Assembly: GCA_029856125.1 (NCBI GenBank) | Contig: JAHQWJ010000083.1 | Span: 1-30,965, forward strand | DNA from: Promethearchaeia archaeon | GTDB lineage: Archaea > Asgardarchaeota > Lokiarchaeia > Sigyniarchaeales > SOKP01 | Length of the DNA stretch: 30,965 nt | Direction: 5' to 3' | In this document: piece after piece, positions 17,926 to 29,364 of the stretch | Position numbering within the stretch: position 1 is the stretch's first letter | How the letters are laid out: each line of letters begins with the position of its first letter | Notes under the pieces: model-generated | What the model was told of the DNA's origin: nothing | Seen by the model: only the letters and a program-made list of their open reading frames with translations | Databases searched by the model: none | Position numbers and translations under genes: made by a program

Positions 17926-18186
17926 CTATCTTGTTGCCTTTCGTATGTCGGCGGCTGTAATTCTTTTAAGACCCTAAACGGAAGCCGTTAAGGGATTTCT
18001 CTTGTCCGCCTTGGTTATTTTTATTGCTTCTTTAGTTGCATCAGCCGCCATTTTCTCAAGATATCCAATTAATTTATCTAGAGCGTCAGCCGCTACTAAA
18101 TCAGCACCTTCTTTTTTCATTAATCTTCGAATTGGTGCTTTAGCAATATAACCATCAGATTTTTTTGCTGGAGCTTTTTTAGCCAT
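17926..18186 (-). CDS. Archaeal histone, two exons: complement(join(17926..17965,17996..18186)), 76 aa after splicing
   Basis: Exon 1 encodes MAKKAPAKKSDGYIAKAPIRRLMKKEGADLVAADALDKL...KADKR. In the same frame, 30 nt later, comes KRITAADIRKATR*, which supplies the L2 loop and alpha-3 (compare HMf-type RKTIKAEDI). SD GGAGG at 18195-18199. Confidence 0.9.
17966..17995 (-). other. Candidate 30-nt bulge-helix-bulge/loop (tRNA-type) intron in the histone mRNA
   Basis: mRNA reads GAGA-AA^U-CCCUUAACGG-CUU-CCGUUUAGGG-UCUU-AA^A. The 4-bp central helix is GAGA/UCUU and there is an in-frame UAG at 17974-17976. Excision yields AGA AAA AGA AUU. Confidence 0.8.
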
Positions 18187-19591: not shown

Positions 19592-19781
19592 TCTATTTTA
19601 ATTAAATCGTATACTCAAACAAAAATTACGGTAGGTTAATAGAATTAAAACGGAAAAACAAAAATAAAATTAAGTTTAAATTAAAGTGTTTAATGATAAA
19701 CATATCGATAAAAGATCATAGGGGATAAAAACTGTGTGGTATTATAATTTTTTAGTGAAAGTAAGAAGAGGTTGATAAGAT

Positions 19782-20339
19782 ATTTCATACCGTGGTAAAG
19801 TTATACTCTGTGGTAATTCGTCAGTCGGAAAAACGAGCCTGTTAGCTCGATACGTAGATGGTAAATTTCAAGAGGATTTTGCGCAAACGATAGGTGCTAA
19901 TTTCCTGATAAAAGAAATTGATTTAAGTAAGATTGTTGATAAAATAGACCTAGAAAACCCTGAACTAAGGCAAGATATTAACGAAAAGGGATTTAAGTTA
20001 TACTTTTGGGATCTTGGAGGACAACACGATAAATTATACAGTACGGAATACTATTTCGTTCAAGCTGTTGGAGCTATGATTGTTTTTAGCTTAAACGATT
20101 TATCAACATTCAATGACATAAATTTTTGGTTAACTAAATTAAAAGATTTAAGTGGGGAAGTGCCTTACATTCTAGTTGGAAACAAAACAGACTTAGATAG
20201 AAATGTAGACAAATTGCTAGTTGAAACAGAAGTAAAGAAACTAGGTATCCAATATTTTGAAACTTCTGCGAAGCTTAATGAAAATGTTGATCTAGCTTTT
20301 GAAAGTTTATCTATTCAAATTTTAAATAATTTAAAATAA
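19782..20339 (+). CDS. Ras-superfamily small GTPase (Rab-like), 185 aa, apparent ATT start
   Basis: The frame is open upstream of ORF 20076 and contains G1 KVILCGNSSVGKTS, G2 TIG, G3 WDLGGQ, G4 NKTD and G5 ETSAK. There is an in-frame TAA at 19776-19778 and no ATG/GTG/TTG before G1. Confidence 0.88.
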   Translation: MSYRGKVILCGNSSVGKTSLLARYVDGKFQEDFAQTIGANFLIKEIDLSKIVDKIDLENPELRQDINEKGFKLYFWDLGGQHDKLYSTEYYFVQAVGAMIVFSLNDLSTFNDINFWLTKLKDLSGEVPYILVGNKTDLDRNVDKLLVETEVKKLGIQYFETSAKLNENVDLAFESLSIQILNNLK

Positions 20340-24207: not shown

Positions 24208-26208
24208 ATGTCTGAAAAACAGACCACTGACAAGATAAGAATAGGAGTTTATGTGTGTAGATGAGGTGTAAATATTGGAGCTCACCTTGATTGTGACGCA
24301 GTTAAAGATTTTGTTGAACCGTTACCTAATGTTGTTATCGCTAGGACGAACAATTTCACTTGTAGCGATCCTGGACAACAAATAATCAAAAATGACATTC
24401 TAGAACTTGATTTGAACCGAATTGTCGTAGCAGCTTGCACTCCTAAGATTCATGAGCCTACTTACCGTGCGGTTTTACGGGAAGCAGGTTTAAGCCCTTA
24501 CTTCTTCGAAATGGTAAACATTAGAGAGCAATGCTCGTTTGTTCATCAAGGTGATAATGAACACGCAACCGAAAAAGCAAAGCGATTAGTTCATGCTGGT
24601 ATAAATCGAGCTCGGGAATTAGAAAACGTCCCTTACAGGGAGATATCCGTAGAAAGAGCCGCATTAGTAATAGGGGCGGGAATTGCCGGAATGAACGCAG
24701 CTTTAGATTTAGCAGAACATGGGATACAAGTCTATTTAGTTGAGAAACAAGCGACCGTTGGAGGCAAAATGGCGCAATTAGATAGAATTTACCCTACAGA
24801 TGATTGTGGCATATGAGTTCTTGCCCCCATTATGGTTAACGCTTCAAAACATCCTAATATCGAACTTTTCACCTATAGCGATATTATCAAGTTTAGCGGT
24901 ATCACGGGAGATTACAATGTTAAGATACGCAAAAATCCAAGGTATGTGAACGAAAGCAAGTGTACTGGATGCGGCTTGTGCACTACCAAATGTCCTATAA
25001 ATGTCCCTAATGAATTTTATAGTGGGATTGGTGAAAGAGGAGCAATTTTTATCCCATTTCCTCAGGCAGTCCCAAAATATGCTGTTATGGATAAAAGTGT
25101 GTGCATCGATTGTAAAAATTGAGAACGAATTTGCCCTGCAGAAGCAATAGAATTTGAACAAGAGCCCGAAATTGTTGAGGTTAAGGTAGGGGCTGTTATC
25201 GTTGCTACAGGATACGATGAATATCCAATTATAGAGACAAATGAATACAACTATGGCATTTATCCAAATGTAATCACCCAGATCGAATTAGAGAGTCTGC
25301 TTAGCCCAATTGGTCCAACAGGGGGACATATTTATAGAATGTCTGACGGAAAAACACCTAAAACTGTGGTGATGATACAATGTGTTGGTTCAAGATCGCT
25401 AAAAGCGAATCCTTATTGTTCATTTGTGTGCTGCAGTGTTGCTCTTAAAAATGCCCAATTGTTAAAACAAGAGTATCCCGAAATGGATGTTATTATATAC
25501 TATATTGACATTAGGACTACTGATAAGGGCAACGAGGAATATTATAGAACAATTAGAGAAGCTGATGTTAGAATGATACGAGGAAAAGTAGGTGAGTTAA
25601 CCGAGGACGATGATCATAATTTAATGGTACGCGCTTATTCCTCTTTAACGGGGGAACTTACTAAGATTAAAGCTGATATGGTAGTATTATCAACTGGAAT
25701 GAACCCTTCAAAGGGAACTATGGAAGCTATTGAAGTATTAGGATTAGCAAAGGGTCCAAACGGATTTTTAACTGAAATTCATGGTTGTTTGAAGCCGCAA
25801 GAAACAAAAAACATTGGGATTTATATTTGTGGATGCGCAGCAGGACCCAAAAACATTCCGTATTCCGTTTCTACGGCTCTAGCTGCTGCTAGCAAAGCTG
25901 CTGCTTTACTTTCTCATAAAACTATTATCCAAGAATTAATCATAGCTGAAGTAGATGAGACTTTATGTTCAGGATGTCATAGATGTGAAAAAGTATGTGA
26001 ATATAAGGCAATCAGCATAAGTGACGATGGAATTGCTCAAGTTGATGATTTGAAATGTAAGGGATGCGGAGTATGCATATCATCTTGCCCAGCAAGAGCT
26101 ATTGATCTTAAATATTATCGAGATCGTCAATTTGAAGCTGAACTTAAAGGAATCGGGCAGAGTGAAATAGATAGTAGTCAAAAAGAATCAACAAAAATTG
26201 AAAACTAA
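24208..26208 (+). CDS. hdrA: Heterodisulfide reductase subunit A, selenoprotein with 3 in-frame UGA (666 aa)
   Basis: Single frame from ATG 24208 (SD AGGTGA at 24197-24202) to TAA 26208. TGA occurs at 24262 (RIGVYVCRUG), 24814 (DDCGIUVLAP) and 25120 (CIDCKNUERICP), all at conserved Cys positions. Also FAD motif IGAGIAG, QCVGSR and CSFVCC. Confidence 0.93.
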
Positions 26209-26229: not shown

Positions 26230-26640
26230 ATGACAGAAGTTACAAATGAAAGAAAAATAATAGGTTTTGGGTGCGAAAAATGAGGTTATTCAGCAGCAGA
26301 TCTGACGGGTACTACGAGAAAATCATATTCCACTAATTTTCATCTAATACGAGTAAGGTGTACGGGAAGAATAGGAATTCATCTAATTATGGAGTGTTTC
26401 TTAAATGGAGCTGATGGAGTCGCTATCATTTCTTGAAAAGAAGGCGAATGCGAATTTGGAAATGGAAACATGAATACTTACGACCATGTTAAATTTTTAA
26501 AAAGATTATTCAACCATCTAGGTCTAGCTGAAGAAAGGATTCAACAATATTTTTGCTCGGCAGCGGAAGTTGATAAATTCATTAAATCTGTGGAAGACAT
26601 CACGAGTAAAGTTGAAAAACTTCCTCCTCTACCAAAATAA
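26230..26640 (+). CDS. mvhD: MvhD/VhuD hydrogenase iron-sulfur (delta) subunit, selenoprotein with 2 in-frame UGA (136 aa)
   Basis: MTEVTNERKIIGFGCEKUGYSAADLTG...IRVRCTGRI...GADGVAIISUKEGECEFGNGN...CSAAE. TGA at 26281 and 26434. Absent from the ORF track. Confidence 0.92.
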
Positions 26641-28844: not shown

Positions 28845-28860
28845 GATAAGGTGATTTGAA

Positions 28861-29364
28861 ATCGGAGATCCAAGAAGGTTAAAGAAAAAATTTAAAAAAC
28901 CGAAACGCCCCTTTGAAAAAGAAAGACAAGCCGAAGAACTCGAGTTTCTAGGAAAATTCGGCCTTAGAAACAAACGTGAATTCTGGAAAATGCGTACCAC
29001 GCTCGGTAATTGGAGGAGTCTGGCTAGACAGTCCAGAACAATGCCTCAAGAAAGAGCTGCTGAAGTTCAGCAAACTTTAATCAATAAATTAGTTAAACTC
29101 GGAGTTTTAGGTCCTGACGCTCAATTCGAAGATGTATTACTACTCACCGTTGAAGACATACTAAGAAGAAGACTACAAACGCTTGTTTTTGAGAAAGGTT
29201 ACGCTAAAACTATCTATGAAGCACGACAATTCGTTGTTCACGGCCACATTCAAGTAGCTGGCAAAAAAATTAACGCTCCTTCTTATATTGTTAAAAAAGC
29301 GGAAGAAGATATGATAGGATACGCTCCTAGCAGTCCACTCTCCGCAATTAAGGAATCCACTTAA
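28861..29364 (+). CDS. rps4: 30S ribosomal protein uS4, apparent ATC start (167 aa)
   Basis: ATC GGA GAT CCA gives (M)GDPRRLKKKFKKPKRPF...FGLRNKREFW, matching the archaeal uS4 N-terminus MGDP. Also RRLQT and ARQFVVHGHI. SD AGGTGAT at 28849-28855. Confidence 0.95.
   Translation: MGDPRRLKKKFKKPKRPFEKERQAEELEFLGKFGLRNKREFWKMRTTLGNWRSLARQSRTMPQERAAEVQQTLINKLVKLGVLGPDAQFEDVLLLTVEDILRRRLQTLVFEKGYAKTIYEARQFVVHGHIQVAGKKINAPSYIVKKAEEDMIGYAPSSPLSAIKEST

What the first reader, a model, noticed from the sequence alone, without database searches (positions are those of the whole stretch)
17926..18010. Candidate tRNA-type (bulge-helix-bulge/loop) intron inside an Asgard-like histone mRNA
SEEN: the histone ORF stops early (...KADKR-NPLTASV*), but the missing C-terminus KRITAADIRKATR* follows in the same frame after exactly 30 extra nt. 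The pre-mRNA reads GGCGG-ACAA-[GAGA]-AA^U-CCCU-U-AACGG-CUU-CCGUU-U-AGGG-[UCUU]-AA^A-AGAAUUACAG-CCGCC. This gives a 4-bp central helix GAGA/UCUU (18001-17998 with 17971-17968), a 3-nt bulge AAU closed by a 9-bp intron stem, and an exon-exon helix GGCGG/CCGCC (18010-18006 with 17954-17950). The 3' site sits in a larger loop, so the form is a relaxed bulge-helix-loop. ESTABLISHED: archaeal splicing endonuclease EndA cuts after the second nt of each bulge and RtcB ligates; the well-known mRNA example is crenarchaeal cbf5. Cutting at those positions removes 17966-17995 and gives AAG AGA AAA AGA AUU ACA GCC GCC GAC AUA, i.e. KRKRITAADI, which aligns without gaps to the histone-fold RKTIKAEDI motif and restores the R...D salt bridge. 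INFERENCE: this is a spliced histone gene in the archaeal lineage closest to eukaryotes. I do not know of it being described, but could not search. Standard gene callers would annotate it as a truncated histone.
Basis: partly seen in the sequence, partly recalled or inferred. Interest (0 to 1): 0.96.

Follow-up and report, generated by a model that had tools for sequence, protein, structure and literature searches.

The report
tRNA-type mini-intron splits Asgard histone
A 30-base hairpin insert with a stop codon breaks the only copy of one histone gene in a marine-sediment Asgard (Loki-type) archaeon; comparison with relatives indicates that the tRNA-splicing enzymes cut it out of the messenger RNA, which the papers I could search confirm inside a coding sequence only for the cbf5 gene, but no spliced transcript was seen here.

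Summary
Observation confirmed. The histone gene 18186-17926 (-) carries a 30-nt insert (17995-17966) with an in-frame TAG. Removing it gives the 76-aa protein of intron-less orthologues. The insert is on 22 separately assembled contigs. It folds as a relaxed bulge-helix-bulge (HBh'/BHL). Thirteen orthologous loci carry 29- or 30-nt inserts at the same codon, with compensatory pairing and a conserved exon 2; the 29-nt versions rule out read-through. Of 16 histone inserts placed by protein homology alone, 14 have the 4-bp helix exactly 2 nt before both cuts, against 0.9 expected. The genome encodes a two-subunit EndA with the broad-specificity loop and RtcB. It has similar introns in two more histone genes, in its single aIF2-gamma gene and in tRNA-Glu. 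Best reading: an EndA/RtcB-spliced mRNA intron (0.88), one of a patchy 29-31-nt class in Lokiarchaeia. The papers searched confirm only cbf5. This scan already reported the same class on other DNA, histones included. New variant of a known kind.

The parts
17996..18186 (-). Histone exon 1 (codons 1-63 plus the first two bases of Lys64); Lys-rich N-tail, alpha1, alpha2, and the Arg of the R..D pair
   Evidence: PF00808 match 17995-18141; up to 97% identity to orthologues
17966..17995 (-). 30-nt intron with an in-frame TAG (17976-17974); hairpin of a 4-bp stem, a U.U mismatch, a 5-bp stem and a 3-nt loop, then the 3' strand of the central helix
17926..17965 (-). Histone exon 2 (last base of Lys64, then RITAADIRKATR and stop): loop L2 and alpha3 with the conserved Asp
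   Evidence: matches the C-terminus of intron-less orthologues; 6 synonymous to 1 non-synonymous codon difference against 29-nt-intron relatives
17998..18001 (-). Exon strand of the 4-bp central helix (GAGA)
17968..17971 (-). Intron strand of the central helix (UCUU)
   Evidence: reads UCUC, GUGC, GUGU or GCGU in relatives, matching their exon strand
17995..17997 (-). 5' 3-nt bulge AA^U; predicted cut between 17996 and 17995
   Evidence: geometry; the cut is inferred from the EndA rule
17965..17967 (-). 3' splice site AA^A in an open loop (relaxed form); predicted cut between 17966 and 17965
   Evidence: no exon-exon pair next to it (h=0); the cut is inferred
18006..18010 (-). 5' arm of the outer exon-exon helix (GGCGG)
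   Evidence: third-position G in 13 of 14 intron-bearing and 12 of 58 intron-less copies (kin not independent); weak in the whole-message fold
17950..17954 (-). 3' arm of the outer exon-exon helix (CCGCC)

Best explanation
The insert is an endonuclease-type (tRNA-type) intron in a histone mRNA. Shown: the insert, its fold, its removal restoring the orthologous protein, conservation of helix geometry across diverged same-site inserts, and the presence of the enzyme genes. Inferred: the pre-mRNA folds into a helix-bulge-helix (HBh'/BHL) motif. [quoted passage not shown] RtcB joins the exons, giving a 76-aa tailed histone; unspliced message would give a 70-aa product without alpha3 and without the conserved Asp. 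The intron is one of a patchy class of 29-31-nt hairpin introns in this Lokiarchaeia family. They are most likely near-neutral passengers that persist wherever the flanking codons let the splice motif form. They are gained, lost and swapped between close relatives, probably by short-patch recombination. That last step is weaker (about 0.4), and how new introns first arise is not shown.
For: (a) Intron-less orthologues equal the spliced product. (b) 14 loci with same-site inserts (13 distinct rows): 92% of cells paired against 70% in shuffles and 37-47% in slid controls; 11 of 16 pairs show double-sided changes; the central helix is 96% paired. (c) The same intron family occurs as 30 nt (in frame) and 29 nt (frameshift) while exon 2 keeps its spliced frame, with 5-7 synonymous to 1 non-synonymous differences in 13 codons. 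(d) 14 of 16 histone inserts placed by homology alone have a perfect 4-bp helix at EndA spacing, against 0.89 expected from shuffled inserts. The offset matrix peaks at (2,2) with 14, next best 7. Many helices are non-palindromic, so target-site duplication does not explain them. (e) This is the only copy of this histone type in a 99%-complete genome. (f) The same genome has canonical BHB inserts in two more histone genes and in the P-loop of its single aIF2-gamma gene, and 25-nt HBh'-type D-loop introns read by eye in two tRNA-Glu genes. (g) Two EndA paralogues and RtcB are present; the alpha subunit's best solved matches are A. pernix EndA chains, with K44/R46 of the CSL loop aligned, and that loop confers BHL cleavage (PMC3241643).
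Against: The 3' site is not a strict 3-nt bulge, and the outer helix is weak in the whole-message fold. The P value (5e-18) treats inserts as independent, although five share this site and two other pairs share sites, so it overstates. One same-family insert sits in a copy with a damaged start next to an intact copy (L062), so some carriers may be decaying. Some rpS11 inserts have bulges other than 3 nt.
Confidence: 0.88

Rival explanations
1. Pseudogene or truncated histone: the insert inactivated the gene, or the 70-aa product works on its own, and exon 2 is a relic.
For: The genome has five other histone genes, three of them intact. One relative carries the insert in a degenerate duplicate (L062). 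Histones with a short alpha3 exist (own knowledge).
Against: Exon 2 differs mainly at synonymous sites between carriers; the splice geometry is kept by compensatory change; the same kind of insert breaks the single aIF2-gamma gene in its P-loop.
Confidence: 0.04
2. Translational recoding: the ribosome reads through the TAG (for example as pyrrolysine) or hops over the hairpin, as in T4 gene 60.
For: The insert is in frame and holds one TAG inside a hairpin; in L062 the stop is lost. AGA codons flank the region.
Against: No PylS above cut-off. Read-through would put 10 residues into the conserved L2 motif. Relatives with 29-nt versions at the same site would be frameshifted. An AGA-to-AGA hop skips 36 nt and loses KR, unlike the orthologues.
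Confidence: 0.03
3. The insert is removed at the DNA level (a small excising element or phase variation), or the population mixes insert-bearing and insert-free alleles.
For: Alleles are exchanged among close relatives: L131, 93% identical to the window, has a different intron inside a patch of about 70 nt. Intron-less sisters are interleaved in the tree.
Against: No direct repeats bound this insert; pairing is reverse-complementary at EndA spacing. All ten contigs fetched encode the truncated product.
Confidence: 0.03
4. Assembly or sequencing artefact.
For: The genome is a metagenome bin with 6% contamination.
Against: The same truncated product is on 22 contigs from three sources, and diverged versions sit at the same site in other species.
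Confidence: 0.005

Closest known systems
cbf5 pre-mRNA intron of Crenarchaeota (Desulfurococcales, Sulfolobales; PMC2738675)
   Same: Short intron (16-44 nt there) inside a coding sequence; often an unconventional BHB; cut by a hetero-oligomeric (alpha-beta)2 EndA; interrupts a conserved functional motif; missed by gene callers; lost in some lineages.
   Different: cbf5 is one gene, one site, one inferred ancestral gain, with cDNA support. Here the host is an Asgard histone, inserts occur at more than ten sites in five histone paralogue groups and in other genes, all are 29-31 nt, the distribution is patchy, and splicing is not yet observed.
Non-canonical tRNA introns of Asgard archaea (PMC11291895; bioRxiv 10.64898/2026.10.13.758758) and Thermoproteales
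   Same: Same motif and enzyme; repeated gains at positions where the motif can form; relaxed forms are common; this genome's own tRNA-Glu genes carry HBh'-type introns.
   Different: Those are in tRNA genes. The 2026 preprint contains no mention of mRNA, cbf5 or histone.
HVO_1309 5'-UTR BHB intron of Haloferax volcanii (PMC7714728)
   Same: An mRNA substrate of the archaeal splicing endonuclease.
   Different: It lies in the untranslated leader, so it does not interrupt a reading frame, and it is a single case.

Membership tests
Archaeal EndA-spliced (BHB-type) intron | 4-bp central helix of exon and intron strands, ending 2 nt before each cut | tested here: met
Archaeal EndA-spliced (BHB-type) intron | Strict hBHBh': both 3-nt bulges closed by adjacent helices | tested here: not met
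   5' bulge closed by a 4-bp intron stem; the 3' site has no adjacent exon-exon pair (h=0). It is the relaxed HBh'/BHL form, so not a canonical BHB
Archaeal EndA-spliced (BHB-type) intron | Relaxed HBh'/BHL form with a host enzyme of the broad-specificity type | tested here: met
   two EndA paralogues; alpha keeps Y, H, K and the CSL K44/R46 (PMC3241643); same form in own tRNA-Glu. Sequence level only
Archaeal EndA-spliced (BHB-type) intron | Removal at the predicted cuts restores the functional product | tested here: met
   the 76-aa product differs by 2-3 residues from intron-less homologues
Archaeal EndA-spliced (BHB-type) intron | RNA ligase RtcB encoded | tested here: met
   E 2.6e-170, open frame
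Archaeal EndA-spliced (BHB-type) intron | Spliced RNA (or circular intron) observed in vivo | not tested
Archaeal EndA-spliced (BHB-type) intron | Cleavage by the host EndA in vitro | not testable with these tools
   bench experiment
Group I / group II self-splicing intron | Catalytic RNA core of hundreds of nt matching Rfam models | tested here: not met
   30 nt; no Rfam match at E<=1
Spliceosomal intron | GU...AG ends | tested here: not met
   the ends are UC...AA; the two other equivalent registers do not give GU-AG either
Pyrrolysine / amber read-through gene | PylS in the genome | tested here: not met
   TIGR02367 best 31 bits against a cut-off of 178
Archaeal HMf-type histone (PF00808) | Histone fold with the RKT(I/V)xxxD motif and alpha3 | tested here: met
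   exon 1 over cut-off; the intron-less orthologue matches archaeal histone A, HPhA, HMfA/B over residues 12-76; met only after splicing

The most novel reading that the evidence does not exclude
In this Lokiarchaeia family, endonuclease splicing of mRNA is a routine step of gene expression, not a one-gene exception. A class of uniform 29-31-nt hairpin introns is still being gained, lost and exchanged, and sits in histones (one gene with two introns, L183), Alba, rpS11 and aIF2-gamma. Making chromatin and translation proteins would then depend on EndA/RtcB in an Asgard lineage, an intron invasion of protein genes independent of the spliceosome.
Probability: 0.7. Interest if true: 0.85.

Novelty: new variant of a known kind. 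Interest (0 to 1): 0.72.

Why it matters
As of the 2009 and 2020 papers, splicing inside an archaeal coding sequence was confirmed for cbf5 only, with others merely predicted (PMC2738675, PMC7714728), and my searches found no later report for Asgard mRNAs. A recurring class of tiny tRNA-type introns in histone and other core genes of Asgard archaea would show that protein genes there can be invaded by introns and repaired by tRNA machinery. That gives a natural system for studying intron gain, loss and tolerance outside eukaryotes. It also has a practical cost: gene callers truncate or frameshift these genes (the database holds the 70-aa product and several odd-tailed 'histones'), which can create false histone variants and false gene absences in Asgard comparative work. 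The prediction is directly testable with metatranscriptomes or recombinant enzyme.

Tried and rejected
The RNA runs held only small shares of the stretch (0.06-0.20) and are not used as evidence.
3) A reference-free genome scan (HBh' motif plus coding score) showed no excess over shifted decoys (165 against 163-191) and missed the three known histone introns, so it is too blunt.
4) Comparing G000 with 400 kb of relative G007 (about 420-430 ORFs with orthologues, shadow ORFs included) found this histone as the only ORF-breaking BHB insert. The short-exon rescue missed a known case, so the density is low but not well measured.
5) 'Histone-specific' was rejected after inserts turned up in Alba, rpS11 and aIF2-gamma. 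rpS13 showed no clear case in 118 genomes; one split hit (G095) was not examined.
6) No donor copy of this intron in its own genome at up to 8 mismatches, apart from one chance-level hit.
7) Target-site duplication was rejected because many central helices are not direct repeats.
8) A simple LAGLIDADG regex found nothing in G000; this is a weak test.
9) The class-wide histone search listed only the best 150 matches, so presence outside the family is undetermined; the eight orthologues from other families were intact.
10) Two scripts failed on a regex slip, and one findings look-up failed on word count.
11) My second notebook entry says '21 of 23' orthologues; the correct count is 20 of 21 same-genus loci.

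Full report
Observation. The minus-strand histone gene starts at 18186, between alba and a divergent trmB-like gene. It reads ...KADKR, then ten insert-derived codons including a TAG at 17976-17974, then KRITAADIRKATR and stop. In a fold of the whole message the central helix (about 0.7) and the intron stem (above 0.9) persist, but the outer exon-exon helix does not. The motif is therefore the relaxed HBh'/BHL form, not a strict BHB. The truncated 70-aa product is on 22 contigs from NCBI, JGI and ENA, and three loci checked are 99.9-100% identical to the window, so the insert is real DNA. The closest named homologues are Promethearchaeota / Lokiarchaeota.

Orthologues define the insert. Twenty of 21 same-genus orthologues, and eight from other families, have no insert; the same-genus ones end like the spliced product. 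The spliced 76-aa protein differs from the nearest database proteins by 2-3 residues. In the family-wide search (135 genomes, about 110 orthologue hits) five copies proved interrupted: G000, G020, G064, G110 and G124. The intron-less orthologue aligns with solved archaeal histones over residues 12-76. Exon 2 therefore supplies loop L2, alpha3 and the conserved Asp.

Same site, different sequences. Thirteen other loci carry an insert in the same Lys codon. On their alignment with this one, the named structure is 92% paired, against 70% in shuffles and 37-47% when partners are slid. Eleven of 16 pairs show changes on both sides, and the central helix (GAGA/UCUU here, GCGC/GUGC and GCGU/GCGU elsewhere) is 96% paired. 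These controls do not fully remove relatedness. This intron's own family occurs as 30 nt and as 29 nt. Between the two length classes exon 2 shows 5-7 synonymous to 1 non-synonymous codon differences in 13 codons. A pseudogene would not keep exon 2 in this way, and read-through cannot explain a 29-nt version. There is also no PylS.

A class, not a single case. The genome has six histone genes, and three are interrupted. The other two (C8, 30 nt; C138, 29 nt) have canonical BHB motifs. I ran a spliced alignment by protein homology alone over 170 histone loci. Every interrupted copy it rescued had one insert of 29-31 nt, in five paralogue groups; two more sites, and a gene with two introns, were found by hand. 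Of 16 representative inserts, 14 have a perfect 4-bp helix ending 2 nt before both cuts, against 0.89 expected from shuffled inserts. The offset matrix peaks sharply at that geometry (14, next best 7). The nominal P of 5e-18 overstates, because several inserts share sites. Control genes showed that the class is not limited to histones. Alba has 30-nt inserts with 4-bp helices in two genomes. rpS11 has 29-31-nt inserts at three sites in seven genomes, some with odd bulges. That gene is essential by established knowledge, so this cell very probably splices at least some mRNA. Density is low: in about 420 orthologue comparisons with 400 kb of a relative, this histone was the only case found, although that screen misses short end exons.

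Machinery. The genome encodes two EndA paralogues and RtcB. One paralogue has the catalytic Tyr, His and Lys; the other lacks the His, as expected of an (alpha-beta)2 enzyme (my reading of the motifs). The catalytic subunit's best solved matches are A. pernix EndA chains (E 2e-33), and it aligns K44 and R46 of the crenarchaeal specificity loop. That loop is what lets such enzymes cut BHL and non-canonical introns (PMC3241643). Two tRNA-Glu genes in this genome carry 25-nt D-loop introns of the same relaxed form, read by eye. That suggests the relaxed 3' site is no obstacle here.

Mechanism. Shown: insert, fold, restored protein, covariation, enzyme genes. Inferred: EndA cuts at 17996/17995 and 17966/17965 and RtcB ligates, giving the 76-aa histone (0.88). 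On a 177-column tree, intron-bearing and intron-less copies interleave; the label needs 7 changes, and at least 2 are forced by well-supported branches. L131 is 93% identical to the window region and nearly identical in most of exon 1 and the 3' flank. It carries a different intron inside a patch of about 70 nt. L221 shows a similar patch within exon 1 that does not involve the intron, so short-patch exchange is a general feature of this gene, not proof of homing. I read the introns as near-neutral passengers that are gained, lost and swapped where the flanking codons allow the motif. No donor was found in the genome, and the origin is open. A regulatory role for the unspliced 70-aa form is not excluded but has no support here.

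What is missing. No transcript evidence. The junction search was uninformative.

Comparison with what is known. It works like the crenarchaeal cbf5 intron and meets the relaxed-form criteria of EndA introns at sequence level. It is not a group I, group II or spliceosomal intron. The 2009 and 2020 papers name cbf5 as the only confirmed coding-sequence case, note that others were predicted, and add one Haloferax 5'-UTR intron (PMC2738675, PMC7714728). The 2026 Asgard intron preprint covers tRNA only. Seven searches found no report of such introns in Asgard mRNAs or histones, but the library lacks most subscription papers. This scan has already noted the class on other DNA: 71 notes in at least 38 genomes, and 24 matching histone-intron words in at least 7. 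Those notes are unchecked AI output and are not counted as support.

Verdict. Observation confirmed, interpretation supported, new variant of a known kind, interest 0.72.

Noticed in passing
G000 C8:64405 region (L002) and C138:48971 region (L006): Two more histone paralogues in this genome carry canonical BHB inserts (30 and 29 nt); the C138 copy sits 1 kb from an intact twin. The C8 intron is shared with G014 and G128, the C138 intron with G003.
   Followed up: yes
G000 C136:18979 region: The single aIF2-gamma gene is split in its GHVDHGKTT P-loop by a canonical 29-nt BHB insert.
   Followed up: yes
L207, L208 (Alba); L197-L201, L204, L205 (rpS11): 29-31-nt inserts in Alba and rpS11 of relatives. 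The rpS11 codon-54 inserts have an enlarged 5' loop and the codon-122 inserts appear to have a 4-nt 3' bulge, so the enzyme may accept wider geometry.
   Followed up: partly
L183:395-520; L179: An orthologous histone gene with two 30-nt inserts in its first 20 codons; L179 shares the second site.
   Followed up: partly
L131:560-650; L221: Near-identical relatives differ by short recombination-like patches of 50-70 nt in this histone gene, one of which swaps the intron for a different one.
   Followed up: partly
L062:1099-1746: Tandem histone copies: one intact, and one with a damaged start and an intron that has lost its stop codon; possibly decaying or read through.
   Followed up: no
G000 C84 (about +116400 and minus-strand offset 57960): Two tRNA-Glu genes with 25-nt D-loop introns of HBh' form. 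ARAGORN finds only 17 tRNAs in this 99%-complete genome, which suggests many hidden tRNA introns.
   Followed up: partly
window 24208-26208 and 26230-26640 (+): HdrA-like and MvhD-like genes with several in-frame TGA codons at Cys positions, probably selenocysteine; they look like fragments to ORF callers.
   Followed up: no
window about 28860-29364 (+) and about 19780-20339 (+): rpS4 and a small GTPase extend well upstream of their first ATG, with no ATG/GTG/TTG in frame, which suggests ATC/ATT-type starts.
   Followed up: no
protein database, P0010, P0017, P0060, P0073, P0080, P0100, P0139-P0150: Many odd-tailed or truncated histone entries; the ones traced to DNA are unspliced intron-bearing genes, so they are mis-annotations.
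   Followed up: partly
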